A stretch of 64,000 nucleotides of DNA, taken from the IMG/VR virus record IMGVR_UViG_3300018430_000021, positions 64,001-128,000 of that record, one strand, 5' to 3'. The notes under the pieces were generated by a model, which was given only the letters and a program-made list of their open reading frames with translations, did not search any database and was not told where the DNA came from. The DNA comes from a virus. Lineage: Duplodnaviria; Caudoviricetes. Positions 1 through 60,344 of this stretch are shown piece after piece (position 1 is the first letter of the stretch; every line of letters starts with the position of its first letter). Both the position numbers and the translations under genes were made by a program.

Positions 1-235
1 ACAGATGGAAGTTATATGCTTTAGCTCCGGGTGACGTTATCCAGCATAACGGGACGAGGATTACTATCCCCGACATTTCCAAGCTGTAGCGTGACGACCA
101 AAAGGAATTCGCTTGCAAGAAACTGACCAACGACCTGATGACCCTGGTAACTCTGGAGAAAAATCTTTCTTAAAAGTCCTTTACGAATTCTTCGCGAATA
201 ACTATATTTGAAATATCAACAAGAGGTTAATAACA

Positions 236-376
236 ATGTTTTTAAATTTCCTTTCAAAAGAAGCTCGCGAAGCACTGCGAGATGCTAACGGCCTTAAGCT
301 TCCTGAACCGGTTGTAACCGGGGTAACTCATCAGACTTTCATCCAGAACATGATTCGTAACGGGAGGAAGCGTTAA
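236..376 (+). CDS. small early hypothetical protein (46 aa, MFLNFLSKEARE...)
   Basis: Promoter at 180, GAGG RBS; stop overlaps the next ATG (TAATG). Confidence 0.75.
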   Translation: MFLNFLSKEAREALRDANGLKLPEPVVTGVTHQTFIQNMIRNGRKR

Positions 377-819
377 TGTTCCACATGGAGACCGTTACCA
401 AGCCGATGACGAAGAAAGAACTTCGTGAACTGAATTACGATGCGACAGAATGCTTGTATCTTTTGCTGTGGCGTCTTTTCGACGATCAGAAGGTACAAAC
501 TGAACTGGCCGACGAATATGCTCGTTTCGTGAAAGAAAACAACCGTATTTCCAGGCATCTGTCCGACATCATGCAGCGTGATACAAGACGCAGGGATAAG
601 TGGTTCTGGCCGGTAAGACAAAACCCGAATACGACCAAAGAAGAAAGAATGCTCGCCTTTACCAAGTGTATCAAGGCTTTTCATTACGAGATGAAACGTT
701 ATGAAGCCGTGCTCGCGAAGCATTTCGACAAGATTCTCAAATACTGCGAAGAAAACAAAATCGACTTGAACCAGTACAAGAACCCGCCTTACTGGCGTAA
801 CTGGAAGGAGAAAGACTAA
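376..819 (+). CDS. early hypothetical protein, paralogue of 819-1226
   Basis: Coupled ORF; TKPMTKKEL and DKWFWPV..TKEERMLAFTK motifs are shared with the next gene. Confidence 0.85.
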   Translation: MFHMETVTKPMTKKELRELNYDATECLYLLLWRLFDDQKVQTELADEYARFVKENNRISRHLSDIMQRDTRRRDKWFWPVRQNPNTTKEERMLAFTKCIKAFHYEMKRYEAVLAKHFDKILKYCEENKIDLNQYKNPPYWRNWKEKD

Positions 820-1226
820 TGTTTTCCGAACAGAACATAACTAAGGCGATGAGTCAGAAAGAACTTATGGCCTTCGTAAGAGACATGTTTGAACATGACC
901 TTCTACTTGACCTCCTGTGTGTCATCAAGAACGAAGACATCAAAACCAAATTTCCTGAAGAACACAAACGCCTCGAATCCGAATGGGAAAAAATCCATCA
1001 CGTGGAGATGTATATCAGCGAGGTGTGTGCACGTGTCATGGAAAAATGGTTCTGGCCTGTATATTGGAACAGTTCCAAGACCAAAGAGGACAAGCTTCTG
1101 GCATATACCAAGATGATTATGTTCAGAAAGAACCGGATGAATCGTTTGAACAAGGTTCTTTACCACCGTTATAAGAATATAGTCGATTATGGCAGGGCAA
1201 CTGGCCTGTTTGCCTCCAGGTGTTAA
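819..1226 (+). CDS. early hypothetical protein, paralogue of 376-819
   Basis: TAATG coupling; TKAMSQKEL and EKWFWPV..TKEDKLLAYTK motifs. Confidence 0.85.
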   Translation: MFSEQNITKAMSQKELMAFVRDMFEHDLLLDLLCVIKNEDIKTKFPEEHKRLESEWEKIHHVEMYISEVCARVMEKWFWPVYWNSSKTKEDKLLAYTKMIMFRKNRMNRLNKVLYHRYKNIVDYGRATGLFASRC

Positions 1227-1353
1227 CCTCATGAGGGGACCAGAGGCGGGCTCGGTTAGTTCCGTCTCTGGTCGCTTGAATTTAAAATTCTTATCTTTTA
1301 CCGTTTACAATATCTTTAGAATTTTCTATATTGATAATATCAAGAGGTTAACA

Positions 1354-1488
1354 ATGAAAACAAAAAGATTTTCCACATTCGATGTCATCTTAATCACTGC
1401 ATTCCTGTTCTTCCTGTACATTACCGGTCTTTGGAAGATTGTCGCCTTAATCGTGTTCATTCTTTTTGTCTGCTGGATGATGTCGTAA
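1354..1488 (+). CDS. small membrane protein (44 aa)
   Basis: Promoter 1304 plus RBS; two hydrophobic stretches. Confidence 0.75.
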   Translation: MKTKRFSTFDVILITAFLFFLYITGLWKIVALIVFILFVCWMMS

Positions 1489-1874
1489 TGATTACAGTAC
1501 AGATTAAAGTCAAGTGGTATGATTATTGGACCAAGAAATATGGTCCGAAACAGCAACACTATTCTTCCATCGTGGGCGAAAACACAAAGCTTGATACAGA
1601 TGAATATGAATCCGATGGCGTATTTTGTTTGAAGGTATCTGCAGACTGGAAGGTCCAGCCAAAGGAATGGTTTAAAAACTCCGGCGGTAATAATGGCATC
1701 TATAGCGGTGCTAACTGCAGACAGTATCTTCAGTTCTGGGATGGAAAAAAGCTGTTGAAGGAATTCGAATGGAAAGAAAGGCCCGGCAAGGAAGGCTTAC
1801 TGGCCCAGAAGGTTCATATCGAGAACTGGATTAAGCAGTGCATCGAGCTCAGTAAGGTGGACATATTGAAATAA
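1488..1874 (+). CDS. early hypothetical protein (start MITVQ)
   Basis: TAATG coupling to the upstream gene. Confidence 0.75.
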   Translation: MITVQIKVKWYDYWTKKYGPKQQHYSSIVGENTKLDTDEYESDGVFCLKVSADWKVQPKEWFKNSGGNNGIYSGANCRQYLQFWDGKKLLKEFEWKERPGKEGLLAQKVHIENWIKQCIELSKVDILK

Positions 1875-1881
1875 AATTTAT

Positions 1882-2422
1882 TTCTTTTCCACTTTACAAC
1901 TTCCAAATAATTTCCTATATTATAAGCATCAACAAGAGAGGTTATTATGGCAAAGATTGATTTGACAAAGTATGAACGACAGATTGACCAGCTGGTTGAT
2001 GAAGCTATTGACTGCGTAACGACGAATGCTCTCGGAATTAAGGGTGATATAGAAGATTCTCAAATTAAAGACTACAACGAGGTTTATCAACAGATTCAAG
2101 ACTATCTGGCCGAGAAGTGGCACAAGGCTAAGGTCGAACGTGAAATGAAGATTAAGCTGGCCAAGGTCGAGCAGGATGTGAAAGAAAATCTCAAGACCCG
2201 TGCAGAAGATGGTATCGTTTCGTTCCGTTCGACTGAAGAAGCTCTTAAGGCTGAAAAGCTTTTGAAAGATAAAGGCTATGAAACCAAGATGTATTGGGAC
2301 CGTGGCTGGGAAAATGTCGAATACTGGATTAACTGGAAGACAGGAAAGTTGAACAAATAAAATTCTTCTTTTCCACTTTACAACTTCCAAATAATTTCCT
2401 ATATTATAAGCATCAACAAGAG
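1882..2422 (+). repeat. 57-bp identical direct repeat (1882-1938 and 2366-2422) flanking gene 1947-2360
   Basis: ttcttttccactttacaacttccaaataatttcctatattataagcatcaacaagag occurs twice. Confidence 0.95.
1947..2360 (+). CDS. early hypothetical protein
   Basis: Own promoter and RBS, 137 aa. Confidence 0.85.
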   Translation: MAKIDLTKYERQIDQLVDEAIDCVTTNALGIKGDIEDSQIKDYNEVYQQIQDYLAEKWHKAKVEREMKIKLAKVEQDVKENLKTRAEDGIVSFRSTEEALKAEKLLKDKGYETKMYWDRGWENVEYWINWKTGKLNK

Positions 2423-2431
2423 GTTAACAAC

Positions 2432-2848
2432 ATGAAAACTTTCAACATCATCGCCAAAATCAAGAATATCTTCGCAAAGAAAGACTATACCGCTCTTCAG
2501 GTCGAAAACTTCGAAGAACACGGGTATGACCTGAAACTCTTGCGAGAAGGAAAGACTGTCTGGAAGGGCCAGCTCTGCAATACACGAGTCTGTTACGATT
2601 GTCATCTGGCTAAAAAGGCCATTGGGTTCTCTGACCGTCGCCAACCGAACATCAATACGAACTTTACCATGTTCTGGTGTGGAACCCCGGGTGCCGCGAC
2701 CGATACGATTGTTATCGGTAACTGGAGTCTTAACCTCGGAAGCTATCCGAAGGATAAGGTCGTGGAAATTCTTCGCAAGCACATCCCGGCGGACAACTTC
2801 TTCTCCGAACACGACAACGATTCTATCGAACGAGCTTTCAAAGTATAA
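2432..2848 (+). CDS. early hypothetical protein
   Basis: Own promoter and RBS, 138 aa. Confidence 0.85.
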   Translation: MKTFNIIAKIKNIFAKKDYTALQVENFEEHGYDLKLLREGKTVWKGQLCNTRVCYDCHLAKKAIGFSDRRQPNINTNFTMFWCGTPGAATDTIVIGNWSLNLGSYPKDKVVEILRKHIPADNFFSEHDNDSIERAFKV

Positions 2849-2861
2849 CGTTAACCTCGAG

Positions 2862-2898
2862 ACCTTCGGGTTGGTCTAGGCTGGCCCGAAGGTTTTTT
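2862..2898 (+). terminator. intrinsic terminator
   Basis: accttcgggt...gcccgaaggt stem plus T run. Confidence 0.8.
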
Positions 2899-2966
2899 CT
2901 CTTCTTTTTATGTTGACATCTTCTGGATATTTTTCTATATTATGAATATCATCAAGAGGTTAACAT

Positions 2967-3458
2967 ATGAAAAACAATCAAATCAACATTTTCGAACTCA
3001 TCTCCAGAATCAACGACGATTACGGTAATATCGTTTATATCGCTCGTAGTTTCCCTTCTGTCGACGTGAAGATCGTTGACGACAAGGACAACACCAAGGT
3101 CGTTATCAGGTCTTATGACTCTAACAACAGTGAATCTCCGGTTGGTAACTTGACTATTACATGGAACGACAAAGAATCTCGTCCTAAATATCATCTGGTC
3201 GGTTACACGGAACAGACTTCGGACGGTGAAACAACCAAGTACGACGATTTGGACTGGAAAGACGTTGACTTGTACACTGTTATCGGTCAGGTCATATCTG
3301 TTCTTTCTCCGGGTGACGAACCGAATGGTGACGATGATCCGGAAAACTGGGAATCTGGTATGAACCCGGATGAATACCTCCAGGATTGTGTAAACAATCG
3401 TACCGGAATCTACAAGGGAATCAACTCCAAGACTGTTCTCTCGACCCCGTGGAACTAA
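2967..3458 (+). CDS. early acidic hypothetical protein
   Basis: Own promoter and RBS, 163 aa. Confidence 0.85.
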   Translation: MKNNQINIFELISRINDDYGNIVYIARSFPSVDVKIVDDKDNTKVVIRSYDSNNSESPVGNLTITWNDKESRPKYHLVGYTEQTSDGETTKYDDLDWKDVDLYTVIGQVISVLSPGDEPNGDDDPENWESGMNPDEYLQDCVNNRTGIYKGINSKTVLSTPWN

Positions 3459-3465
3459 AGAAAAG

Positions 3466-3490
3466 AACCGGGGAAACCCGGTTTATTTTT
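3466..3490 (+). terminator. intrinsic terminator
   Basis: AACCGGG-GAAA-CCCGGTT plus T-rich tail. Confidence 0.85.
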
Positions 3491-3558
3491 CTCTTCTTTT
3501 TATGTTTACATCTTCTGGATATTTTTCTATATTATGAATATCAACAAGAGGTTAACAT

Positions 3559-3909
3559 ATGAACGAAATTAAACTTGACTGTCATTCCATGGAAAACCAG
3601 ATTCTTTCGCTTCAGGAAGAGATGAATCGTTTAAAACACAAGGGCGAGGTGGTTATCGCCATTCCCGAAATCAACGAGATGAATCCGCTTGTATTCCTGG
3701 ACATGGCCGACATCGAGAAGCGGGGTAGACATTGGTCGGTAACTTTACAGTTCGATAAGTGCTATGCACGAATCGTCGACAACTGCCGAATCCTGTTCGT
3801 ACACTTCGATGATTACTACATGGGCGGACGTAGAGAAGAACTCGTACCGTACCACAGCGACGAAGAACTTGTCGAAGAGTTCAAGAAGCATGTCGAATTC
3901 CTCAAGTAA
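3559..3909 (+). CDS. early hypothetical protein
   Basis: Own promoter and RBS. Confidence 0.85.
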   Translation: MNEIKLDCHSMENQILSLQEEMNRLKHKGEVVIAIPEINEMNPLVFLDMADIEKRGRHWSVTLQFDKCYARIVDNCRILFVHFDDYYMGGRREELVPYHSDEELVEEFKKHVEFLK

Positions 3910-4035
3910 GGGGGTTTACAGATTGGGCACATTTTTCTATATTTGTGCCCGTCTGAAATAAAATTCCTAAATAATCTTCTTTACAAGATTTGCGGAATTT
4001 TCTATATTATGAACATAACAAAAAGGAATTAACAA

Positions 4036-4395
4036 ATGAAAAAAATCATCATCTTCGCTCTTCTCATCGTTTCTATCGCTTTCGCTTCTGAAACCGACAA
4101 GGGAATCGTAAACGTTACCAAGAACAAGTACGGGACTGAAATGTCCTTCTGGCCGAATACGAGCCTCGAAGGTATCGGCCATGTCTATTCCATCGTGTTG
4201 AACGATTGCGAAGGTTTCAAGTCGGTGGAAATCAAGTTCATGGACGGAACCGTCCAGTATTACTCTTTCGACGAGGAAAAGATGCCTTCTGTTACAACCA
4301 AGTCCGAAGACAGGGTTCTTTCCTGGGAATCTCTTACCTTGCCGAAGTTTATGAAGGAATGGAATCGTTACCTGTCATTCTTCAAGAACGTGTAA
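4036..4395 (+). CDS. exported protein with signal peptide
   Basis: MKKIIIFALLIVSIAFA|SE Sec-type signal; own promoter. Confidence 0.8.
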   Translation: MKKIIIFALLIVSIAFASETDKGIVNVTKNKYGTEMSFWPNTSLEGIGHVYSIVLNDCEGFKSVEIKFMDGTVQYYSFDEEKMPSVTTKSEDRVLSWESLTLPKFMKEWNRYLSFFKNV

Positions 4396-4418
4396 GTTTA
4401 GCTTAACCTCGATGATGG

Positions 4419-4450
4419 ACCGCTGGGCATGGGCGCCTGGCGGTCTTTTT
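4419..4450 (+). terminator. intrinsic terminator
   Basis: gaccgctgggc...gcctggcggtc plus T run. Confidence 0.75.
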
Positions 4451-4664
4451 CATTTTATACTCATATATTTTCTATCTTATATTCACTCCATATTTGAGTT
4501 GTGGAGAGAGTTTTATAATAGAGTAAGATGTTTATACTCGTTATAAAAAGAGTCTTTAAAATGATTTTCTTTCGTGAGTCCATACAAGAAAAATTCTTAT
4601 ATTTTCTAGTTGACAAAAACCAAATCTTTTTCTATATTATAAGTATCAACAAGAGAGGTTAACA

Positions 4665-4961
4665 ATGTCAAGAGCACGTCATGCAGTCAAACGTTTCACG
4701 CCGGACTTCTGCTGTGAAGCACATATCATCGCATACAGCGGTTTGTTCGGAAAAGAAATCCATCAGACATTGACAGTCTACGGTGACTATGCCGACAACG
4801 AACGGGCGAAGAAGATGCTCAAGCTGAAGATGGAACGGAAGATAAAGAAAGAATATCCGGGCTTCCGCAGTTACGTTTCCTGCAAGTTCTACAAGCATAT
4901 CAAGGGAATGTTCGGTTTCTGCTTCGGCGATAAAGAAGGCGTCGATTACGAGGAGATTTAA
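4665..4961 (+). CDS. early hypothetical protein
   Basis: Promoter 4610 plus RBS. Confidence 0.8.
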   Translation: MSRARHAVKRFTPDFCCEAHIIAYSGLFGKEIHQTLTVYGDYADNERAKKMLKLKMERKIKKEYPGFRSYVSCKFYKHIKGMFGFCFGDKEGVDYEEI

Positions 4962-5350
4962 TGATACCAGAATATATGATGACACGCGAAGAACGTTACC
5001 ATTATCAAATGGAAATGGAAGAAAGAGAAAATTCTGAACGCATCAAAGATCTTTCTGTCGATTATTCATCTATCAAGGAAGAAATCAAGAAACTTAACGA
5101 TGAATTTGACACACTCAAGACATATATCAGCGATGTTGTTTATTACCCCGCGGTAAACGTTCGCGATCCAAAGATCGAAATTAAACGCGAAGCACGTCAA
5201 TGGGCTGCAGTTTTTACATTCGGTAATCGTAGAGCTTATATCTACACAACTGGCGTAGTCAAGTTTATCAACTCAAAAGGTAATGAAAAACGTGTTAAAT
5301 TCAAAACCCGTGGTGAATTAAAGGATGCATTCATCAGAGAGTATAAATGA
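4961..5350 (+). CDS. early hypothetical protein
   Basis: GAGGAG RBS, TAATG coupling. Confidence 0.8.
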   Translation: MIPEYMMTREERYHYQMEMEERENSERIKDLSVDYSSIKEEIKKLNDEFDTLKTYISDVVYYPAVNVRDPKIEIKREARQWAAVFTFGNRRAYIYTTGVVKFINSKGNEKRVKFKTRGELKDAFIREYK

Positions 5351-5643
5351 GTAAGTTCATCATCGTGAATCCCAAGACCGGGAAACCGGTCCAGATTAAC
5401 GGCTATGTGAACAAGATCCGTAAGCTCGGGGAAGTAACCACCGACAAGAATGGCCAGCCCTGTCTGAACTTTATCCGCGTCTGTGACTGTTACGGCCCGA
5501 AAGGTTACATTTCCGGTGCTTATACTGTATTGGTCGAGGGCCAGACTAAAGGAATCAAGCCTGATACAGTAGAGAAGCTTAACCAGGTTCGCGAGCAGAT
5601 CTGGAAAAAACTTATAGAAAAGAACGGCTTACAATCCCTGTAG
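5347..5643 (+). CDS. early hypothetical protein
   Basis: ATGA overlap. Confidence 0.8.
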   Translation: MSKFIIVNPKTGKPVQINGYVNKIRKLGEVTTDKNGQPCLNFIRVCDCYGPKGYISGAYTVLVEGQTKGIKPDTVEKLNQVREQIWKKLIEKNGLQSL

Positions 5644-5675
5644 GTTTTTCTATATTTTAATCAAGAGGTTAAAAC

Positions 5676-5903
5676 ATGAGCAGACAACGCAGTAATCAAT
5701 CCGAATGGAAACGTGACTGTAACCGTTCCCAGCGCCGTTCCAACAAGCAAACGCTTACTTCTATGGACAAAGAGAACGATGACCCGAAAGTAATCAACCA
5801 TTACAAGGAAACGAGACGGGGAGACATCTGGTGCTCGCCTAACGACGGATGGAACTGGCGCCGTGGCCGTGGACACGATAAGAAAAAGCCCTGGAGAGAC
5901 TAA
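5676..5903 (+). CDS. small Arg-rich protein
   Basis: Promoter 5628 plus GAGGTTAA RBS. Confidence 0.75.
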   Translation: MSRQRSNQSEWKRDCNRSQRRSNKQTLTSMDKENDDPKVINHYKETRRGDIWCSPNDGWNWRRGRGHDKKKPWRD

Positions 5904-6232
5904 TGAACAAGTTCGAAGCAAGAAACGTAGCAAGCGAAAACGGCTGGAATGAATGGGGAACCAATCCCAAGTTCTGTGTAAAAGTTCCAGAAGGTAATCT
6001 TCGCGTACATATTCAAATCGGGTATGAACTGAGCTTTGATAATTCGTCAGATGATGAAGTCAGTCTGGTGATGGAAATTCATAAGCCGAGCTCCGCCCAT
6101 CCGCCTGTAGCCAGCCGCAGATGCTGTCTCCGGTACATGGATGAATCCTACTTCAAGAACTGGCTAGAATCCGAATCCAGAGAACTCCTCGAAATCGGCC
6201 AGAACCAGAGCAGAAAGGGAGAACTCCCGTAA
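5903..6232 (+). CDS. early hypothetical protein
   Basis: TAATG coupling, GGAG RBS. Confidence 0.8.
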   Translation: MNKFEARNVASENGWNEWGTNPKFCVKVPEGNLRVHIQIGYELSFDNSSDDEVSLVMEIHKPSSAHPPVASRRCCLRYMDESYFKNWLESESRELLEIGQNQSRKGELP

Positions 6233-6307
6233 GGTTTATTTCTAACCTTTCTTGTTTACGTTTACTGTATGGATTGCTATATTATAAACATAACAAGAGA
6301 GGTTAGC

Positions 6308-6415
6308 ATGGACTTAAATATTCTTTCTATCGCACTGATGTTCGCAGCTGTCGTCTACGGTGTTCGTGTCGCGAACCAGGAATTTGACGAGGCCGAAAAG
6401 AACAGGACAAAATAG
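6308..6415 (+). CDS. small membrane peptide (35 aa, MDLNILSIALMFAAVVYGV...)
   Basis: Promoter 6255 plus GAGAGG RBS; one hydrophobic segment; absent from the ORF track. Confidence 0.7.
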   Translation: MDLNILSIALMFAAVVYGVRVANQEFDEAEKNRTK

Positions 6416-6461
6416 CGAAAAGCCTCCGTTGATTCTTATATATAAGGCAATGGAGGTTCAT

Positions 6462-6617
6462 ATGGATTATGAAGAAGCTTATAACCGCCTGTTAGAGAAC
6501 GAGATCGCGACGTCCGAAGAAATAGAACTCGTTACAGAAATCAACGGAAAGAACATCGGTACGTTAACTGATATTCTCTTCGCGAGAACTGGCTCAAAGG
6601 ACTTTAACGAAATCTAG
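6462..6617 (+). CDS. small hypothetical protein (51 aa, MDYEEAY...)
   Basis: GGAGG RBS at 6452-6456. Confidence 0.7.
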   Translation: MDYEEAYNRLLENEIATSEEIELVTEINGKNIGTLTDILFARTGSKDFNEI

Positions 6618-6688
6618 TTCTTTTTCAGGCACGAGAGGCGAGGAGTAAAATCCTCGTCCTTTTCGTACCCAGAAGCTATAAATAACGC

Positions 6689-7159
6689 ATGAAGAATCCA
6701 ATCATTGTCAATCCCGACGCCAACCCAGAACTGGCCAGCTATCTGGCCGATATAGTAAAAGACTTTACCAGTTCTTTCCCCTGCACAAGAGATAACTGTG
6801 CACATATCAATCGCGAGCTTATGACCCAGCTCATAATGGAAGGAGAAACCCCCAAGCTGATTTATGGCCTGTACCGGGTAGATTCCTACCTCGGCTGGCT
6901 GGATGAGGACGATTTCACTGACGAGGAACTGGCCCAGATAGAAAAAGAATACGGTGGTAATAACCGCCACAGTCTGGAGGCATTCGTCCGCTCGCTACCA
7001 GAAAACGAACAGGAACAGTACCTGTATATTCCGCACTGGTTCTTACTCCTGGACGGTTTAATTCTGGACGCAGCTTCTGATATGTTCCAGCTTAAGGATA
7101 ATATCAAAAACAGTCCGGACCGTTACTATAGCGAGACTATGGAGCCGATACTGGACTAG
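6689..7159 (+). CDS. hypothetical protein under a late promoter
   Basis: TATAAATA at 6677-6684, 4 nt before the ATG. Confidence 0.8.
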   Translation: MKNPIIVNPDANPELASYLADIVKDFTSSFPCTRDNCAHINRELMTQLIMEGETPKLIYGLYRVDSYLGWLDEDDFTDEELAQIEKEYGGNNRHSLEAFVRSLPENEQEQYLYIPHWFLLLDGLILDAASDMFQLKDNIKNSPDRYYSETMEPILD

Positions 7160-7788
7160 TTATAGTCATAGTAGTATTTTTTACCGATTTCTTTACTGAG
7201 CCCGTAATCGACAATTACGGGCTTATAATCTATCATCCCGTACTGTTCAGAGCCGAACTCACAAAGGTCGTCACAGTCGAGGTCCGTAGCTAACAGCCGG
7301 TGAAGATTCTGGCCGAAGTCAGTAGCTAGAAACCGGCTATAGGCTGTTTCTATCAGATTCGGTGGCTTATTCCCGTCTGAAGCAAATAACCGGCCGATAC
7401 TGTCACCGATTTGTGTAGGTGATAGCTTAATCTGGTCCGATAGCTGGAGCCAGAACCTGTCATCAAATCTTTTCGCCCGCCGGGACCTAATCCAGCATCC
7501 GTCGCTGGCACAGTCCAGAACCTGGTTCAGGACCGGATTCTGCTGTTCGCTGTAAAAGCTGTCCTCGAACAGGTTCTGTTCCTGGCCCGGTCTGTTCCTG
7601 GCCAGTTTTAGCACCGACTCGTCGTCTACAGCCAGAACTATCCGGCCAGAACCTCGACCGATAAGTTTCAGCCGGTACTTACTGGACAGTTCCTTAACGA
7701 ACTGGTTCAGGTGATTGCTCGTCCTGTGCGGGTGCTGGAAGATTCTGTTCCGCGAATAGAACTGTTCTATTTCTTTCTCTATTTCCAT
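7156..7788 (-). CDS. protein kinase-like protein
   Basis: Gly-rich loop IGRGSGRIV, VLKLA (catalytic Lys), QN..E, and C-terminal PVIVDYGL (DFG equivalent). Confidence 0.7.
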   Translation of the reverse strand: MEIEKEIEQFYSRNRIFQHPHRTSNHLNQFVKELSSKYRLKLIGRGSGRIVLAVDDESVLKLARNRPGQEQNLFEDSFYSEQQNPVLNQVLDCASDGCWIRSRRAKRFDDRFWLQLSDQIKLSPTQIGDSIGRLFASDGNKPPNLIETAYSRFLATDFGQNLHRLLATDLDCDDLCEFGSEQYGMIDYKPVIVDYGLSKEIGKKYYYDYN

Positions 7789-7967
7789 CGCTGGTGATTC
7801 TTATAATCGTGCTCCGCTAACAGTTCATCGAATTCGGCGAGAAGCTTTGGCAACTGGTACTGGCGATAGTTACTGTCCTTTTCCTGGTCCCGTTGCCTGT
7901 TGTACCAGCGTTTGACAGCGAATATAACCACCAGGCCGATAATGACGACTGTTATGAATCCTAACAT
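7779..7967 (-). CDS. small membrane protein
   Basis: N-terminal hydrophobic helix; promoter at 8020. Confidence 0.75.
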   Translation of the reverse strand: MLGFITVVIIGLVVIFAVKRWYNRQRDQEKDSNYRQYQLPKLLAEFDELLAEHDYKNHQRWK

Positions 7968-8068
7968 TTATTACCTCTCGATACTGGCTATAATATAGCA
8001 ACAGTTCTCGCTTTCGTAAATAGGAAAAGGCCAGGATTTTACTCCCGGCCTTCCCGTATCGAGGTTAA

Positions 8069-8317
8069 CTAAACGCTTCCTTCCATCGATTTCATCCGGA
8101 CGTTATCCTCGGTCTCCGAAGCGAAACCCATGACGTAGTTTAACGCTTCGCCGTTTTCCGACTCGAAATGAATCGCATTCCCACGTTTTTCGTACCGTAC
8201 GAGGTCTATGTCCCCGTTATGTTCCGGATGTAGATTCCGATTGCGAAAGTCGTCGAGACCGGCCAGTTCATCGTAGGCTGCGTCTTCCGACGTATAGACG
8301 ATAAATCCCTTGAGCAT
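8069..8317 (-). CDS. early hypothetical protein
   Basis: GGAGG RBS, coupled to the upstream gene. Confidence 0.75.
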   Translation of the reverse strand: MLKGFIVYTSEDAAYDELAGLDDFRNRNLHPEHNGDIDLVRYEKRGNAIHFESENGEALNYVMGFASETEDNVRMKSMEGSV

Positions 8318-8574
8318 TACTTGCCTCCCTGGTAGAGCGAATTCAACTGGATAACTTCCTGGTAGTTGACGACGTTATGGAATACACGCCCATCGTCACA
8401 AATCAGGTTTAGAGCATAACCAATCTCGCTGTGGACGATATGCCCGACGCATTCCACGACATTTGGAATGATATACGTCTTCGGTTGTTTCAGGTCATTG
8501 TTGTCACAACCTGTCGAAACCAACGCGATTCCAGTGAGTACCAAAGCCATACCGGCGATTATAATCTTTTTCAT
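8317..8574 (-). CDS. putative lipoprotein
   Basis: MKKIIIAGMALVLTGIALVSTG|C lipobox-like signal; own promoter. Confidence 0.7.
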   Translation of the reverse strand: MKKIIIAGMALVLTGIALVSTGCDNNDLKQPKTYIIPNVVECVGHIVHSEIGYALNLICDDGRVFHNVVNYQEVIQLNSLYQGGK

Positions 8575-8648
8575 GTTTAACCTCTTTCGTTATATTCATA
8601 ATATAGAAATATTCGAACGTAACGTAAATGAAAATCTTAGAGAAGTTT

Positions 8649-8891
8649 TTAACAGCTGTGCACCGTCCAGAGCATGCAGGCCGTTGACTCGACCCATATC
8701 CTGTCAGACTTGAACTCTTCACGACGGGCGAATCTATCGTGCAATAGAGTGGCCGTTCCCAGCCAATTCTTCTGCTGGAGAATCTCCTCGACCTCTTCAG
8801 CCGATAAATGCTCCGCCCGGCCATCGTCTCCAGGGAATAGGCCAGCGAGCAGTTCCTTTCTTACTTCTGCGGTGAATTCTTCTTCGTTCAT
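8649..8891 (-). CDS. early hypothetical protein, probably leaderless (start MNEEE)
   Basis: TTGACG-N17-TATATT, 6 nt before the ATG, no SD. Confidence 0.7.
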   Translation of the reverse strand: MNEEEFTAEVRKELLAGLFPGDDGRAEHLSAEEVEEILQQKNWLGTATLLHDRFARREEFKSDRIWVESTACMLWTVHSC

Positions 8892-8941
8892 GACCATAAT
8901 ATAGAAATAACCGTCAGTTCCGTCAATAGGTAATTATCGGG

Positions 8942-9307
8942 TTATTTTCCCGGCAACGCATCGATAGCCAGCTCATTCTCCAGCCCGAGCAGACGCTGTA
9001 GCCAACCGTCACCGAATTTGACGATTTCCTGCAGGCGTAAATCTATCCGGCCGGCGTTAATATCGTTGAACGGTATCTGATAAACTCGGGTATCGAACCA
9101 GTCCTTCGCCGGCCCGGTATAGAGGATAAGCACAGCCTTCTGGTCCTGATCCCAGGACGGGCGATAATAACCTGTCCAGTCAACGTCCAGATTATAGACA
9201 ACGCCGGAAAGCTGGAGTCGTTTATTGATCTCGTCCAGCTTCTCGGCTATGTGCGACATAGGATAACCGGCCATAGACTTATCCCAACAGGCTACCGATT
9301 CCGCCAA
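8942..9307 (-). CDS. early hypothetical protein (start uncertain)
   Basis: 121-aa ORF downstream of 9279-9473. Confidence 0.65.
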   Translation of the reverse strand: MAESVACWDKSMAGYPMSHIAEKLDEINKRLQLSGVVYNLDVDWTGYYRPSWDQDQKAVLILYTGPAKDWFDTRVYQIPFNDINAGRIDLRLQEIVKFGDGWLQRLLGLENELAIDALPGK

Positions 9308-9473
9308 CTACCCAAGTCGCACCGTGAGCTACGTTAGATACGATTCCCGTAGCCAGAGCCACGATGGAGTTGACCGACCCGCAGAAGGAACCTGTCACGT
9401 TACTGTTGGTGGTCATGGCTCCGATACCGAACAGGACCAGAAGGACGATGATGAGAACTTTGAACTTTGTCAT
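9279..9473 (-). CDS. small membrane protein (start MTKFK)
   Basis: Promoter 9528 plus GAGAGG RBS; hydrophobic and Gly-rich. Confidence 0.75.
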   Translation of the reverse strand: MTKFKVLIIVLLVLFGIGAMTTNSNVTGSFCGSVNSIVALATGIVSNVAHGATWVVGGIGSLLG

Positions 9474-9557
9474 GTGATTAACCTCTCTTTGATATTCATA
9501 ATATAGAAAAAGAACCGGCATCCGTAAACCGATTCTTTTCCAATTTTTCTTACGGGA

Positions 9558-9917
9558 TTACATCGAACGCTTTTTCATCGTGTCAAATCCTTCGAACCAT
9601 TCATCGATCCACGTCTTATTGCTCTTCATCTGGTCATACATTTCCTTTATCCACTGATGCTTGTCAAGGATTTCGGGTTCGACCTCTTCCGATTCTTGCG
9701 CGATAGTCAACCAATGTTTCGCGTCCTTCACGCTAAAGTCGTCTATCTCGCGGTCGAAATCGTAAAAATCTTGATTTTCGTCCGAATCGTCGGAATAATC
9801 AATCGTAAGCGTCTCGTCGTATTCTTCCAACCGCTTCAAGTATTCGTCACGTTGTTCGCTAGAGATGAGCGCTTCGATGCCCGTTTTAGATTGCGGAATA
9901 TGTACCAAATAGTTCAT
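9558..9917 (-). CDS. early acidic hypothetical protein
   Basis: Own promoter and RBS. Confidence 0.8.
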   Translation of the reverse strand: MNYLVHIPQSKTGIEALISSEQRDEYLKRLEEYDETLTIDYSDDSDENQDFYDFDREIDDFSVKDAKHWLTIAQESEEVEPEILDKHQWIKEMYDQMKSNKTWIDEWFEGFDTMKKRSM

Positions 9918-10110
9918 TTTAACCTCTCTTGATGATGATATTCATAATATAGAAAATCGAATCCAATCCGTAAGCCATTATTATATTCTTTTTTCTTACG
10001 GGATCGCACAAAGGAGACTATGCCGTATGCGATCCCGTGATTTATTTCTTTTCTTTTTTCGTTTACATTTACTTCCAAACTTTCTATATTATAAGCATCA
10101 AGAGGTTAAC

Positions 10111-10515
10111 ATGATTACGAATTTCAAGACTACCAGCATTTCCGAAGAACTTGCCATCATGAACATGGCCGATGTCGATTTCACGATGTGGGGCGAACCG
10201 GCCGAACTTGCGAAGGACGAATATTACCTCGAGACGTTTAACCACCGCCGTGAGATGGAAGCGAAGGGTTATGTGCTCAATCCTCATTTCGACGAGAATA
10301 TGTCATGGTGGAAGGACAAGCACAGCGATCGCCCGTATGACAAGTTCCTCGATTTCGACTGCAACGAATTCGTCACTCCGGAAGAACTCCAATTGTACGA
10401 AGACAAATGTAAGGCGGTCTCTTTCGGATATACGCTGTACCAACGTCTTCTTACCGAAGAAGAACAAGAAGAAGACTACAAGATCTACTGCGAAGAATTC
10501 CATAAGGCGGCATAG
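10111..10515 (+). CDS. early hypothetical protein (start MITNF)
   Basis: Promoter 10062 plus GAGGTTAAC RBS. Confidence 0.85.
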   Translation: MITNFKTTSISEELAIMNMADVDFTMWGEPAELAKDEYYLETFNHRREMEAKGYVLNPHFDENMSWWKDKHSDRPYDKFLDFDCNEFVTPEELQLYEDKCKAVSFGYTLYQRLLTEEEQEEDYKIYCEEFHKAA

Positions 10516-10602
10516 CGAGCCCGCGCCTTTATTTCTAACTTTTCATGTTGACAACTTCCGGATATTTTACTATATTATAAGTATCAACGACAAGAGGTTA
10601 AC

Positions 10603-10911
10603 ATGAATAACGAAGAATTGAATACATACGCAAACCGAATCGAAACCGCCGGCCTGAAGCGCGACGCGAAAGTAACCGACCTTCATCATTATGCCGTGGC
10701 CGTGGAAGTTACGCCGAAGACATACGGCGAAATAGTCGAAAGCATGCCCGACGCGTTCGAATACTGCTTCGACTACTTCGACCAGAAGGCCGACAAAGAA
10801 GAATCCGTCTTCATGTTCTACCTCGAAGACTGCAACGGCGAGGACGTCGACGCGATAGAAAACTGGCTGAAGACGCATACCGGCTGGCGGTCTTACGAAT
10901 ACAATGGCTAG
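10603..10911 (+). CDS. early hypothetical protein
   Basis: Own promoter and RBS. Confidence 0.85.
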   Translation: MNNEELNTYANRIETAGLKRDAKVTDLHHYAVAVEVTPKTYGEIVESMPDAFEYCFDYFDQKADKEESVFMFYLEDCNGEDVDAIENWLKTHTGWRSYEYNG

Positions 10912-11013
10912 TCCGAAAGAAAACAATACAAGAAAAAGGTTTACAACTTCGTCCGGTTTTTCTATATTAATAACGTAAGCAATGTCGCTTACGTAAAACC
11001 GAACGAGGTTAAC

Positions 11014-11295
11014 ATGATTAAAAGCTTCAGCTATACCAACGCCAAGGGTCATACTACCGTAAGGATCTGTAACGTGGTACATGAAAACGAAACCGAGATT
11101 CGCGGGTTCGATTACAACAAGATGACCCGAGCGGAACAGGAAATCGTAAACAAGGTCTATCCCAACGACCACAAGCCGACTCCGTGTCCTACCGAATTCC
11201 ACAAGACGAGCGAGGTGGACTACGATTCACTCGGTATTCCGAAAGAACTGTTCTCGAAGGCCTACAGGGTTTTCAAGAAGAGCAAGTGTTTCTAA
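11014..11295 (+). CDS. early hypothetical protein
   Basis: Own promoter and RBS; 5' stem-loop in the leader. Confidence 0.8.
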   Translation: MIKSFSYTNAKGHTTVRICNVVHENETEIRGFDYNKMTRAEQEIVNKVYPNDHKPTPCPTEFHKTSEVDYDSLGIPKELFSKAYRVFKKSKCF

Positions 11296-11413
11296 CCTCA
11301 GTTGATAAGAATCTCCAGAATGTCGTGAGATATACTGAAGATTTTTTACTTGATTTTTTGGTTTACAACCTCTTCCAAATTTACTATATTATAAGTATCA
11401 ACAAGAGGTTAAC

Positions 11414-11788
11414 ATGAAAAAAGAAAATATCATCATCCATGAATGCACGAGCCGTAACGAAATCGAAAACCTTGGTTCTGCAGCAACCATCGAAGGACTC
11501 ACACTCGATTCGATTCCGAAGTATGTGGAACTCATCGAGAAGCTTGGTGGCAAGTTCAAGCAGAAGAGTGACGAGAAACTTACCGTATATGTAACCAGTG
11601 GTTTACAGATGAATAAGTCTTTCCGTCTGAAGGGAAGCAATGCATATCCTGATGACACGCACATCGTGTCCATCAAGCTTGAAGACTTCGACTACGAGAT
11701 GGACTTCTGCATCAACAGACTTCGCTTCGGTATCAGGTGGATGGATGACATTCTCGACAACAACCGCTGGCACAATCGAGGCAAATAG
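11414..11788 (+). CDS. early hypothetical protein
   Basis: Own promoter and RBS. Confidence 0.85.
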   Translation: MKKENIIIHECTSRNEIENLGSAATIEGLTLDSIPKYVELIEKLGGKFKQKSDEKLTVYVTSGLQMNKSFRLKGSNAYPDDTHIVSIKLEDFDYEMDFCINRLRFGIRWMDDILDNNRWHNRGK

Positions 11789-11789
11789 T

Positions 11790-12285
11790 CTCTCGTAGCT
11801 CGACCTCTGGCTCGACGAAGAGGCCTTCCGGGCTACAGTTTCGGTGACGTATACTGTGACGTTTTTACCCCAAAATGTCAGGTATATCGTCGCCTTTTTC
11901 GTCATTATATAGGGCCAGATCTGGTGCCCCCCGGGGGGCCTACGGTGACGCCCCTGGGCGGGAAAACTCGCTGTGTTCAAAAAAAGTATTAAGCTTCCTA
12001 TAGGGCTAGGTACCGGGCCTATCCGGAAAATGTGCCCCTATTGGCCAAAATGTGTGCGTCTCGAGGCGATCCCCTAAAAATTTTTTCCGGAATTTTTTCC
12101 AGGCGGTCCAGACCGTATAGGCTAGTTCCAAAAAATTTTTTCCGGAAATTTTTCCTATAGTCGGGAAACGGCGGGCGAAGTTGCCGTTAAGGTCAAAATC
12201 TATGGTTTTCCCTAAAAAATTCGAATACGTGCCTGTCCAAAAAAATTTTCCGGAAATTTTTTCCTCCCCGGGAAAAATTAAGGGC
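11790..12285. repeat. non-coding junction with palindromes and A/T-tract repeats; candidate genome terminus or packaging site
   Basis: GCCCCCCGGGGGGC palindrome at 11926-11939; three AAAAATTTT(TT)CCGGAA(A)TTTTT(T)CC copies at 12076-12100, 12130-12155, 12239-12264. Confidence 0.6.
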
Positions 12286-12321
12286 TTTACGTATCTAGTG
12301 TATATTGCTATATTGTATTAT

Positions 12322-12714
12322 ATGTCGGATTATTATGATAATTACGAGAATTGTGAGAAATATCTGTTAGAACACGGATATACACGGTATAAGTGTAACG
12401 TGTTGGTTATAGATGCGTTGTTCAGCGTGATGTACCTTAAGGATTCCGACCATATGAAAATAAACCTGCTTTACGGGAAGAGCGGCGAACGGTGTAACAT
12501 GACTTGTTCTGTCAATTACAGCGGGAAGATGGGACCGCAGTTCTGGGAAAGGATCGCGTCTACATATGAGTCTCATGCCCGGGAGCATTTCAGGTTCCGT
12601 GTGGACAACGAGGATTTTCTTAGGCTGGTTGGCGATAACGACTATAATACAGTCGAGATGGCGTTCCGGAGGCACGAGATGGAGAAGTCGTTGGAGGTTC
12701 TGGATGGTGTATAA
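12322..12714 (+). CDS. tandem paralogue family member 1 (start MSDYY)
   Basis: Promoter 12286/12309, ATG 7 nt after the -10; ends EKSLEVLDGV. Confidence 0.85.
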   Translation: MSDYYDNYENCEKYLLEHGYTRYKCNVLVIDALFSVMYLKDSDHMKINLLYGKSGERCNMTCSVNYSGKMGPQFWERIASTYESHAREHFRFRVDNEDFLRLVGDNDYNTVEMAFRRHEMEKSLEVLDGV

Positions 12715-28471: not shown

Positions 28472-29674
28472 TTAAATAATATTCGGAGACTTTGTATCGA
28501 AAATGCAAAGCATCTCGTTTATGTGACCGTCTGATTCCAACCAGCATTCACTGTTATTGATGAAATCATACTGCCAATTCAAAACCTCGTTATACTTATC
28601 TTTTTTGCAGAGTTTCCAGAACATTGTATCTATTTCGTCGATAGAAGATGTATCGAAGAACTTACATTCTGGATGAATTTCTCGATACGGACTATCATCG
28701 TTTGCCTTGAAAACGTCGCCGATAAATACACAACCGCAAGCACAAGCTTCTGTAAATCTTAAAGAAGACTTACATCTGTTGAACGGGTTATCGACGATGG
28801 AAGCAATACTGAAATCGGCATGCAATTCCATAAACTTTCTCGGGAAGGTATGCGAGTCAGACCATGGAACGTATGTAATCTTGTTCTTGATAGGTTCAAA
28901 GAAGAACGGCAATGAACCTACAACAACGAAATCAATCTTGTCTTCTTTAACATTTTTAATAACCCAATCACAAAGCGCCGTATTCCAGTCACCTTTGTCA
29001 CCAGGCTGTCCAGGATGTCCATTCGGGAAATTCGGATTCTGACCAGGCTTAAGTGTAGGAATCGGTGTACGGAAATGTGTTGGACTTCCGGAATAAATTA
29101 CAACCGGTTTCTTAAGGTCTTCTTCTACTGGTTTCTTACGTTCAAAATTCCAAAGATAACGCGGAACAACGTTCTTTACAACCTTGACGTTATTGTGACC
29201 GAAAACTTTTTCGACCATCTTCTTAAGATACGGAGTAGAACAGATAACCTGGTCAACCATCGGAAGTACGGCTTTCATTACATCCATAATCTGGCCGATA
29301 TTGGACATAAATCCGTCATGACCAGGATTATAAGACGGAACTGCGTCATCTTTTCCTTCACCAGTAAGGAATACAAGATCATCGAATTCGGCGACAATCT
29401 TGTAATTGAATCGCGGCTGTAATTCCTTGTAACGTGTAATAATCTGAATGTCCATCGGATTGATTGGACGCTGGAAAATCAATGCCTTTGTTCTTGCAAG
29501 ATAACCTGGATCGAATGTCGGAAACGGCAAAACAATCGGATAAACACCCATGTTATGTCCGTTAATATATTCACTATTGTATCGAAGTCTTACATGACTG
29601 CAACCAGAATTATCCTTACAGAAAATTAGTGCAAGATTTTTTCCATCTGAATTTTCAGTATGTGCATTTAACAT
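28472..29674 (-). CDS. glycosyltransferase (GT-B-like)
   Basis: SGC..VRL, IFQR, EFDDL, CSTPYL..N, YSGS..H, DFSIA.I.DNPFNRCKS.L+..E. Confidence 0.8.
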   Translation of the reverse strand: MLNAHTENSDGKNLALIFCKDNSGCSHVRLRYNSEYINGHNMGVYPIVLPFPTFDPGYLARTKALIFQRPINPMDIQIITRYKELQPRFNYKIVAEFDDLVFLTGEGKDDAVPSYNPGHDGFMSNIGQIMDVMKAVLPMVDQVICSTPYLKKMVEKVFGHNNVKVVKNVVPRYLWNFERKKPVEEDLKKPVVIYSGSPTHFRTPIPTLKPGQNPNFPNGHPGQPGDKGDWNTALCDWVIKNVKEDKIDFVVVGSLPFFFEPIKNKITYVPWSDSHTFPRKFMELHADFSIASIVDNPFNRCKSSLRFTEACACGCVFIGDVFKANDDSPYREIHPECKFFDTSSIDEIDTMFWKLCKKDKYNEVLNWQYDFINNSECWLESDGHINEMLCIFDTKSPNII

Positions 29675-59966: not shown

Positions 59967-60344
59967 TTATCTCTTTATATGTTGAAGTAATGTTTCCGGA
60001 ATATTATGAATAATCATACCAGGAGGATTATCCTTATTGCCTTTTAAAATTTGAAGGTTGTAAAGTCTAATTCCGCCAACCGGATCCAGAATATTTATTA
60101 TCTTATAAAGACAAATATCATTCTGTACATTACTAATTACTTCTTCATTCACAACGAACGGTCGCACAGTTTCATCAACTTCATAAGAGCTGCTGTGTGA
60201 CGTTGCTTCACCTTTGTTATATTCTTTTGCTGCTTTTACGGCTGCGGTAAGTCTGGAAGCAACCCATTCAGGGCAATGATTCGACCTTACGATGTCCTTA
60301 ATCGCATTTAAAAGAATATTTAACTGTTCTGCTTTAACTTCCAT
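59967..60344 (-). CDS. hypothetical protein
   Basis: Operon position. Confidence 0.7.
   Translation of the reverse strand: MEVKAEQLNILLNAIKDIVRSNHCPEWVASRLTAAVKAAKEYNKGEATSHSSSYEVDETVRPFVVNEEVISNVQNDICLYKIINILDPVGGIRLYNLQILKGNKDNPPGMIIHNIPETLLQHIKR

What the first reader, a model, noticed from the sequence alone, without database searches (positions are those of the whole stretch)
1221..11413. Anti-leader sequences upstream of early promoters co-vary with the downstream RBS (RBS-occlusion or attC-like cassette system)
Seen: right after several stop codons there is a reverse complement of the NEXT gene's leader. 1221-1234 tgttaacctcatga vs 1340-1353 tcaagaggttaaca (13/14). 2850 gttaacctc vs gaggttaac at 2955-2963. 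4403 ttaacctc vs the leader of 4665. 6242-6256 ctaacctttcttgtt vs 6292-6306 aacaagagaggttag (15/15 with one G-U). 6421-6431 agcctccgttg vs 6448-6458 caatggaggtt (11/11 with two G-U). On the minus strand, acctcgatac after gene 8069 vs the variant leader gtatcgagaggt of 7967. 11293 taacctcagttgata vs tatcaacaagaggtta. Where the leader deviates (ggttag, gtatcga, tggagg), the anti-leader changes with it, and mismatches are often G-U, which favours RNA pairing. Inference A: read-through transcripts fold to hide the RBS, so each gene is translated only from its own promoter. T4 does this for e, soc and I-TevI, but here it is applied across an early cassette array. Inference B: TAAC at the stop and GTT before the next start is attC-like geometry, so the intergenic units may be ssDNA hairpin recombination sites for cassette shuffling.
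Basis: partly seen in the sequence, partly recalled or inferred. Interest (0 to 1): 0.82.

Follow-up and report, generated by a model that had tools for sequence, protein, structure and literature searches.

The report
Anti-ribosome-site box before early terminators
A giant T4-like phage from ruminant guts ends about ten of its early transcription units with a conserved 8-base box, placed between the stop codon and the terminator, that is the exact mirror of the ribosome-binding leader shared by its early genes; this probably masks those leaders at the RNA level, but it is neither array-wide nor strictly matched to the next gene.

Summary
The complementarities are real. TTAACCTC, the reverse complement of the early leader core GAGGTTAA, lies 0-8 nt after the stop codon and just 5' of a terminator hairpin at about ten sites. 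Six are in the finding and the rest lie upstream. The box is strongly over-represented and is kept at orthologous sites in six related metagenomic phages, while the terminator stems change by compensatory substitutions.

The system is not array-wide: only 9 of 61 promoter units beat shuffles at z<-2. Co-variation with the next RBS is weak. The box is retained in front of leaderless genes and of a changed leader (GAGGTAAA). It always lies inside the upstream transcript, and predicted folds leave it mostly unpaired there.

My reading is a generic anti-Shine-Dalgarno box of early 3' ends. It can pair with any consensus early leader on the same RNA: upstream RBSs, or the next RBS after read-through, which folds predict for most sites. 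It may also pair in trans.

The attC idea fails: the core motifs do not fit and no recombinase was found. RB49 PeSL terminators lack such a box.

I rate this a new variant of known RBS occlusion. AI notes from this scan report other anti-leader RNAs in other large phages. No expression or activity data exist.

The parts
1223..1230 (+). Anti-leader box TTAACCTC. Its TAA (1224-1226) is the stop codon of ORF 819-1226.
   Evidence: kept in L002:9242 and L005:9276
1238..1273 (+). GC-rich hairpin after the box (gaccagaggcgg/ccgtctctggtc). It has no clean U-tract, so it is terminator-like only.
1304..1353 (+). Promoter TTTACA-17-TATATT and leader tcaagaggttaaca of the gene starting at 1354.
   Evidence: predicted to pair with the box in read-through RNA, P=0.98
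2730..2737 (+). A further TTAACCTC inside the coding sequence of ORF 2432-2848.
   Evidence: kept in all relatives
2851..2858 (+). Anti-leader box, 2 nt after stop codon 2846-2848.
   Evidence: invariant in 7 genomes
2862..2899 (+). Intrinsic terminator (-21 kcal/mol) with T-tract. The stem changes accttcggg/cccgaaggt to actcacggg/cccgtgagt in relatives.
2913..2966 (+). Promoter TTGACA-17-TATATT and leader ..atcatcaagaggttaacat of the gene starting at 2967.
4403..4410 (+). Anti-leader box with extension (TTAACCTCGATGATG), 7 nt after stop codon 4393-4395.
4417..4451 (+). Intrinsic terminator (-22 kcal/mol) with T-tract.
4488..4563 (+). Conserved non-coding element (CCATATTTGAG...GAGTCTTTAAAATG) between the terminator and the next promoter.
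   Evidence: also at two upstream box sites
4610..4664 (+). Promoter and leader (gaggttaac 4655-4663) of the gene starting at 4665, 262 nt from the box.
6242..6256 (+). Anti-leader ctaacctttcttgtt overlapping the -35 box. No terminator here.
   Evidence: z=-4.85; P=1.0; only partly kept in relatives
6292..6306 (+). Variant leader aacaagagaggttag of the gene starting at 6308.
6421..6458 (+). Local hairpin sequestering the GGAGG SD of the gene starting at 6462. The loop holds TATATATA.
   Evidence: -17.2 kcal/mol, invariant in L005, L006, L009 and L013
8061..8068 (-). Anti-leader box on the minus strand (TTAACCTCgatac, to 8056), abutting stop codon TAG 8069-8071.
8027..8052 (-). Intrinsic terminator hairpin of the minus-strand unit.
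7971..8020 (-). Minus-strand promoter (TTTACG 8020-8015, TATATT 7997-7992) and variant leader gtatcgagaggtaa (7984-7971) of the gene starting at 7967.
   Evidence: (rank 1 of 61)
11292..11307 (+). Box variant CTAACCTCagttgata. Its TAA (11293-11295) is the stop codon of ORF 11014-11295.
11311..11348 (+). Weak terminator hairpin with T-tract.
11362..11413 (+). Promoter and leader tatcaacaagaggttaac of the gene starting at 11414.

Best explanation
TTAACCTC is a generic anti-Shine-Dalgarno ('anti-leader') box. Together with the stop codon and an intrinsic terminator it forms the 3' boundary module of early transcription blocks: stop, 0-8 nt, box, 2-8 nt, hairpin, U-tract.

The box is transcribed as the last single-stranded stretch of the upstream mRNA. 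There it can pair with the conserved early leader core GAGGUUAA, which contains the SD. This would mask a ribosome-binding site on whatever RNA carries both: upstream RBSs of the same terminated mRNA, or the next gene's RBS when the terminator is read through. It may also pair with other early mRNAs in trans. The expected result is damping, shut-off or insulation of early-gene translation.

Shown: the motif, its position, its enrichment, its conservation and the predicted pairing. Inferred: that pairing happens in vivo, which partner matters, and the effect on translation or decay.
For: - Exact 8-nt complement of the leader core, sense-oriented on both strands, at about ten sites in genome 55-76 kb.
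- Often extended to 10-15 nt: TGTTAACCTC, GTTGTTGACCTC, CCTC-GATGAT against ATCATC-AA-GAGG.
- Of about 10 stand-alone early terminators on the + strand, 5 carry the exact box and 1 a variant. Only 1 of 5 PeSL-type hairpins carries it.
- Orthologous modules in L002, L005, L006, L009, L013 and L015 keep the core: mean pairwise identity 0.97 against 0.81 for neighbouring columns, invariant in 5 of 7 groups. Terminator stems change with compensation.
- The box is retained whatever lies downstream.
- In predicted folds of terminated RNA it is mostly unpaired, 0.5-0.8.
- Its best genome-wide targets are early RBS leaders.
- In read-through folds it pairs with the next leader at P = 0.46-1.0 in 9 of 10 sites.
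- aSD-like 4-mers are depleted in early coding sequences relative to synonymous shuffles: CCTC z=-2.7, CTCC z=-3.2.
- aSD-like 8-mers act on an RBS hundreds of nucleotides away in B. subtilis (PMC12697547).
- A 3'UTR anti-SD controls icaR (PMC3868564).
Against: - No RNA or expression data; everything rests on sequence and thermodynamic prediction.
- At groups F (w4403) and A (relatives) the nearest upstream promoter's leader does not match the box (E = -2.7 to -5.8). There an own-mRNA partner would have to be further upstream, downstream or in trans.
- w6242 has no terminator and can only act in read-through RNA.
- The modules are partly paralogous (TAAGTTTAG-TTAACCTCGA shared by three sites), so the sites are not independent.
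- SD-like GAGG and GGAG are also depleted in coding sequences, so the aSD depletion is not specific.
- Relatives are only about 20% diverged in these spacers.
Confidence: 0.5

Rival explanations
1. Each box exists to hide the next gene's RBS in read-through transcripts, so each gene is translated only from its own promoter, and box and next leader co-evolve.
For: - A promoter lies between the arms at every site.
- The helix is predicted in read-through RNA.
- The downstream leader binds better than the own-unit leader in 9 of 10 G000 sites.
- Some sites have extra site-specific complementarity: w6242-6256, w8056-8068 (rank 1 of 61), w11292-11307, L005:7800-7817 with a G-U, and L009:1345 (rank 1 of 33).
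- T4 e, soc, 49 and I-TevI are a precedent (PMC3014915).
Against: - The box is kept before leaderless genes: G000 60319, the kinase gene in L005, L006 and L013, and L006:9050 / L009:9053.
- It is kept before a changed leader, GAGGTAAAAAT, in L006, L009 and L015 without any compensating change.
- Ranks of cognate leaders are mostly unremarkable.
- The box is tied to terminators, which minimise read-through, and is always 5' of the hairpin.
- It is absent from terminator-less junctions.
Confidence: 0.25
2. No RNA-pairing function. The stop-box-terminator unit is a paralogous cassette end spread by PeSL-like homologous recombination. The box is an inverted leader fragment that hitchhikes, or that serves at the DNA level as an inverted repeat for rearrangement or as a protein-binding site.
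For: - Modules share flanks beyond the box (TAAGTTTAG..TTAACCTCGA, GATGATGAG).
- The array is PeSL-like and shows gene gain and loss between relatives at these units.
- The core GTTAAC is palindromic in 6 of 10 boxes.
- A block of genes (w6614-9917) is inverted.
Against: - The core is more conserved than its surroundings, while the adjacent terminator stems drift with compensation.
- The box has a fixed orientation and a fixed place inside the transcript.
- No recombinase was found.
- No inverted -10 box accompanies it.
Confidence: 0.15
3. One reading: the intergenic units are attC-like single-stranded DNA hairpin recombination sites for cassette shuffling.
For: - Inverted repeats about 100-260 bp apart bracket each unit.
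- The cassette-like array shows indels between relatives.
Against: - RYYYAAC fits 1 of 9 boxes and GTTRRRY fits 5 of 80 leaders.
- The interior does not form an attC-type imperfect hairpin.
- No PF00589 or PF00239 recombinase occurs in the record, which is about 70% complete.
- Homologous recombination at PeSLs already explains shuffling in T4-type phages (PMC2839356).
Confidence: 0.02

Closest known systems
Promoter-dependent RBS sequestration in T4 genes e, soc, 49 and I-TevI (reviewed in PMC3014915)
   Same: An upstream segment complementary to the SD is present only in longer transcripts. A promoter between the two arms gives transcripts that lack the 5' arm. The w6421-6458 and w6242-6306 elements are compact examples of this design.
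   Different: - T4 uses single compact hairpins with a late promoter inside. Here the main box is a repeated 8-mer 100-260 nt from the leader, with a terminator and an early promoter between them.
- The box is tied to terminators.
- It persists where the next gene has no SD.
PeSL (promoter-early stem-loop) cassettes of T4-type phages (PMC2839356, PMC4122927)
   Same: Arrays of small ORFan genes each carry a strong sigma70-like promoter, an SD and a stem-loop terminator. Many hairpins here enclose the -35 box, exactly as described for PeSLs. Gene content differs between relatives at these units.
   Different: - The PeSL papers describe no element complementary to the SD or leader.
- None of 14 sense-strand terminator hairpins in the first 50 kb of RB49 has an aSD-like motif upstream.
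icaR 3'UTR anti-SD / 5'UTR pairing in Staphylococcus aureus (PMC3868564) and the hbs 5'/3'UTR interaction (PMC5737220)
   Same: An anti-SD motif in the 3'UTR, just before the terminator, is able to pair with an SD on the same mRNA.
   Different: - Those are single genes. Here a family of about ten copies faces a shared leader of dozens of genes.
- At some sites the own-mRNA leader does not match.
Long-range aSD-like repression of RBSs in bacterial mRNAs (PMC12697547)
   Same: Pyrimidine-rich 8-mers resembling the anti-SD act on the RBS from hundreds of nucleotides away. They are depleted from coding sequence, as CCTC and CTCC are in these early genes.
   Different: That work describes avoidance of such sequences. 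Here they are positively kept at defined 3' positions.
3'UTR-derived, terminator-sharing small RNAs of bacteria
   Same: The architecture is a single-stranded seed followed by a Rho-independent terminator hairpin and a U-tail. The box is predicted to be accessible.
   Different: There is no evidence for processing or accumulation of a 3' fragment. The host and any RNA chaperone are unknown.
Integron attC sites
   Same: Short inverted repeats bracket an intergenic unit between cassettes.
   Different: The consensus cores, the folded structure and an integrase are all lacking.

Membership tests
T4-type promoter-dependent RBS sequestration | SD/AUG paired with an upstream complementary segment in the longer transcript | tested here: met
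   Prediction only. P(box:leader) is 0.46-1.0 at 9 of 10 sites, and unpaired SD falls from 0.37 to 0.12.
T4-type promoter-dependent RBS sequestration | A promoter between the arms gives transcripts lacking the 5' arm | tested here: met
   TTTACA/TTGACA-17-TATATT lies between box and leader at every site.
T4-type promoter-dependent RBS sequestration | The complementary arm tracks its own RBS | tested here: inconclusive
   It tracks at w6242, w8056-8068, w11292 and L005:7810. It does not track in group E (L006, L009, L015), and the box is kept before leaderless genes.
T4-type promoter-dependent RBS sequestration | Translation is reduced on long transcripts | not testable with these tools
   Only contigs of metatranscriptome runs were available.
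PeSL cassettes | Composite sigma70-like early promoter plus stem-loop terminator between small ORFan genes | tested here: met
   61 units lie in genome 26-76 kb. Hairpins enclosing the -35 box occur at, for example, genome 53833, 56305 and 62149.
PeSL cassettes | Insertions, deletions and replacements between relatives at the units | tested here: met
   Gene content differs at unit borders between G000, L002, L005, L006 and L009. Examples are the extra gene at G000 60319 and the extra gene at L006:18514.
PeSL cassettes | Mini-circles formed by recombination between units | not testable with these tools
   This needs inverse PCR or raw reads.
Integron attC | R'' RYYYAAC and R' GTTRRRY core sites | tested here: not met
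   1 of 9 boxes and 5 of 80 leaders fit.
Integron attC | Whole site folds as an imperfect hairpin with extrahelical bases | tested here: not met
   The interior is a terminator hairpin plus an unpaired AT-rich promoter.
Integron attC | Cognate tyrosine recombinase | tested here: not met
   PF00589 and PF00239 are absent from the 291-kb record. The record is about 70% complete, so absence is not proven.
icaR-type 3'UTR-5'UTR pairing | Anti-SD motif in the 3'UTR upstream of the terminator | tested here: met
   The box lies 0-8 nt after the stop codon and 2-8 nt before the hairpin.
icaR-type 3'UTR-5'UTR pairing | Complementary to the SD of the same mRNA | tested here: inconclusive
   Upstream leaders match at most sites (-11 to -19 kcal/mol). 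They do not match at w4403 (-2.7) or at group A in relatives (-5.8).
3'UTR-derived terminator-sharing sRNA | Accessible seed directly 5' of a terminator hairpin with U-tail | tested here: met
   The box is 0.5-0.8 unpaired in most predicted terminated RNAs, with T-tracts of 4-6.
3'UTR-derived terminator-sharing sRNA | A stable processed 3' fragment accumulates | not testable with these tools
   No raw RNA reads were available. There was no Rfam match.

The most novel reading that the evidence does not exclude
The boxes are a phage-encoded, multi-copy timer for early gene expression. Every early transcription block ends in an accessible anti-leader seed fused to a terminator. As early mRNAs are completed and decay, their 3' ends, whether attached or as stable fragments, titrate the shared early leader in cis and in trans. 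This switches off early translation as a class, while late genes with different RBSs and leaderless genes escape.
Probability: 0.2. Interest if true: 0.8.

Novelty: new variant of a known kind. Interest (0 to 1): 0.5.

Why it matters
No trans-acting or class-wide RNA regulator of translation had been functionally characterised for T4 as of the 2010 review PMC3014915. PeSL cassettes have been viewed as promoter and terminator units only.

A conserved anti-SD box built into early terminator modules would add a translational layer to these cassettes. That layer could act as insulation, as feedback or as a shut-off timer.

It would also be a natural case in which aSD-like sequences are deliberately kept at a defined position, although bacteria otherwise purge them from genes (PMC12697547). 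The box and leader pair is short and could be tested in reporter constructs. AI notes from this scan report other anti-leader RNAs in other large rumen and marine phages, so this may be one form of a wider strategy.

Tried and rejected
- **Array-wide occlusion:** rejected. Mean z was -0.38 over 61 units.
- **Close relatives in the phage collection and in viral contigs by pattern or early proteins:** none found. Relatives came from a protein search plus contig look-ups.
- **Metatranscriptome runs X15-X18:** these were held only as contigs of about 95%-identical relatives. Some RNA-library contigs stop near w4412-4425 and w8058-8076, and others bridge w1224-1354 and w11293-11414. Alignments clip where terminators differ, and DNA carry-over cannot be excluded, so nothing about transcript ends or read-through can be concluded.
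- **Rfam:** no relevant family.
- **Opposite-strand genes:** the reverse complement of each box is not followed by a start codon, so the boxes are not RBSs of antisense genes (read).
- **Hammerhead-like CUGAUGA in CCTCCTGATGATGAG:** there is no GAAA or stem III, so rejected.
- **Box as anti-terminator pairing with GAGG in the 5' arm of the terminator:** present at only a few sites, so not general.
- **CCTC versus GAGG counts in intergenic regions:** my stop-codon assignment truncated several spacers, so this was not used.
- **Zone 26-50 kb:** boxes of local flavour occur before terminators at 28792 (AATACCTCGTTG) and 45255 (TTATCCTCTAGTTGAT). Sites 33438 and 41473 have no RBS target.
- **G-U versus A-C asymmetry:** only two informative substitutions, so no test was possible.

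Full report
**Context**

The window is bases 64001-128000 of a 291-kb IMG/VR virus record, about 70% complete. DNA holders are ruminant faecal and gut metagenomes. Notes by other readers describe T4-type late promoters and a gp17-like terminase; I did not test this.

Genome 26-76 kb (window to about 12 kb) is an array of small ORFan genes. I found 61 units with a sigma70-like promoter (TTTACA/TTGACA-17-TATATT) followed by a highly conserved leader..ATCAACAAGAGGTTAACA-ATG in the 50-76 kb part. Many promoters carry a hairpin that encloses the -35 box, with its T-tract abutting the -10 box. This is the published PeSL layout of T4-type phages (PMC2839356, PMC4122927).

**Observation**

All the quoted complementarities exist. 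The recurrent element is the 8-mer TTAACCTC, the exact reverse complement of the leader core GAGGTTAA. It is in the sense orientation of the local genes. It starts within 8 nt after the stop codon, and at four sites its own TAA is the stop. It lies 2-8 nt before a GC-rich hairpin.

| Site | Position |
|---|---|
| In the finding | w1223, w2851, w4403, w8068 (minus strand), w11292 (CTAACCTC) |
| Upstream in the genome | 55048, 57498, 60238, 61485 (TTAACCTG), 63401 (TTAACTCC) |

(63401)

- w6242-6256 is a different, terminator-less 15-nt anti-leader that overlaps a -35 box.
- w6421-6458 is a compact SD-sequestering hairpin of -17.2 kcal/mol.
- TTAACCTC occurs 21 times in the window against 2.5 expected. 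The sense-oriented, non-leader copies are about 20 times more frequent than expected.

The phenomenon is not array-wide. The best duplex between the 116 nt upstream of each -35 box (the box included) and its leader beats dinucleotide shuffles at z<-2 in only 9 of 61 units, with mean z = -0.38.

The box goes with stand-alone terminators. Of about ten such terminators on the + strand in genome 50-76 kb, five carry the exact box and one a variant. Only one of five PeSL-type hairpins carries it.

**Relatives**

A protein search with the w2432 gene found homologues at 98-60% identity. Contig look-ups returned syntenic early arrays L002, L005, L006, L009, L013 and L015.

- The module (GTTTAnnG)TTAACCTC(G/C)(T)GATGAT.., then hairpin, then T-tract, is present at orthologous positions.
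- Core identity is 0.97 against 0.81 for the other aligned columns, and the core is invariant in 5 of 7 groups.
- Terminator stems change with compensation. At w2862-2893, accttcggg/cccgaaggt becomes actcacggg/cccgtgagt. This confirms that the terminators are real RNA structures and that the box is constrained separately.

**Which partner?**

*For read-through occlusion of the next RBS.*
- Folds of read-through RNA pair box and next leader with P = 1.0, 0.90, 0.87, 0.51, 0.98, 0.07, 0.46, 1.0, 0.72 and 0.60.
- The downstream leader binds better than the nearest upstream leader at 9 of 10 sites.
- Several sites carry extra, site-specific complementarity:
  - w8056-8068 CTCGATAC against GTATCGAG, rank 1 of 61.
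  - w11300-11307 GTTGATA against TATCAAC.
  - L005:7800-7817 GTTGTTGACCTC against GAGGTTAACAAC, with one G-U.

*Against read-through occlusion as the dedicated function.*
- In L006, L009 and L015 the w2851 orthologue keeps TTAACCTC although the next leader has become GAGGTAAAAAT (-9.5 kcal/mol, ranks 23 of 28, 24 of 33 and 14 of 18).
- In L005, L006 and L013 the w8068 orthologue (CTAACCTCGATGATGATGG) is invariant although the next gene, the kinase, starts 7 nt after its -10 box and so appears leaderless.
- The same holds for G000 60238 (leaderless gene at 60319) and for L006:8970 / L009:8973.
- Cognate-leader ranks are otherwise unremarkable.
- The box always lies 5' of the hairpin, inside the terminated transcript. 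It is absent from the many terminator-less junctions where read-through is normal.

*An own-mRNA partner also fails at some sites.* At w4403 the upstream leader gives -2.7 kcal/mol, and group A in relatives gives -5.8.

The reading that fits every site is a generic box aimed at the consensus early leader.
- Its best targets genome-wide are early RBSs.
- It is predicted to be mostly unpaired in terminated RNA.

**Plausibility from the literature**

- T4 sequesters the RBS of e, soc, 49 and I-TevI in longer transcripts (PMC3014915).
- A 3'UTR anti-SD pairs with the icaR SD (PMC3868564).
- aSD-like 8-mers hundreds of nucleotides from an RBS pair with it, block translation and promote decay in B. 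subtilis, and are depleted from genes (PMC12697547).
- In the early coding sequences here, CCTC (z=-2.7) and CTCC (z=-3.2) are depleted relative to synonymous shuffles. GAGG and GGAG are also depleted.

**attC idea**

The consensus cores fail: 1 of 9 boxes and 5 of 80 leaders fit. The interior does not fold like an attC site. No tyrosine or serine recombinase was detected. PeSL-type homologous recombination is the better-founded explanation for cassette turnover.

**Novelty**

- The PeSL papers mention no complementarity to the SD.
- None of 14 sense terminators in the first 50 kb of RB49 has an aSD-like motif upstream.
- No Rfam family matches.
- AI notes from this scan describe anti-leader loops or small RNAs in other large rumen and marine phages. 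These are leads, not evidence. They suggest the theme recurs in other forms.

**Verdict**

The mechanism most likely involves RNA-level masking of early RBSs by a 3'-terminal anti-leader box. Read-through occlusion is one possible mode rather than the demonstrated purpose. The attC reading is rejected. No expression data exist.

Noticed in passing
genome 41558, 42276, 43128, 45341, 45779, 48664, 49560, 53019, 60319 (all before the window); window 8891 (minus strand); L005:14470(-), L006:16270(-), L006:9050: Many early genes look leaderless: TTTACA-17-TATATT is followed after 6-7 nt by the ATG of an ORF of 80 aa or more (95-210 aa among those listed here). Several sit directly behind a box-plus-terminator module.
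   Followed up: partly
window 4488-4563; genome 57540-57700 and 63450-63600; L005:3370-3520, L006:1150-1300: A conserved non-coding element of about 150 nt (CCATATTTGAG ... GAGTA ... GAGTCTTTAAA(A)TG) lies between box-plus-terminator and the next promoter at three sites. It is kept in relatives. No Rfam match within the window (only 1-12500, the w4488-4563 copy, was searched).
   Followed up: partly
window 2730-2737: TTAACCTC inside the coding sequence of ORF 2432-2848 (codons ..T AAC CTC) is kept in all relatives, although the preceding codon changes (CTT/TTT).
   Followed up: no
window 6421-6458: An RBS-sequestering hairpin is invariant in four relatives. Its loop holds TATATATA, one mismatch from the T4-type late promoter TATAAATA, so it may be a true T4 e/soc-style switch.
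   Followed up: partly
window 9996-10040: A 45-nt GC-rich hairpin (-23.5 kcal/mol) lies between the divergent promoters of the minus-strand unit at 9917 and the plus-strand unit at 10111.
   Followed up: no
genome 26-64 kb, upstream flanks of -35 boxes (e.g. genome 62149, 56305, 53833): A recurrent ..yCGAAAGAAAAA.. / ..CTGAAATAAAA.. stretch lies just after stop codons and about 25 nt before the -35 box. It may be a UP-element-like A-tract or a shared gene end.
   Followed up: no
genome 47740-47790 (before the window): A tRNA-like T-arm (ggttcaagtccgag) lies directly before a terminator inside the early array.
   Followed up: no
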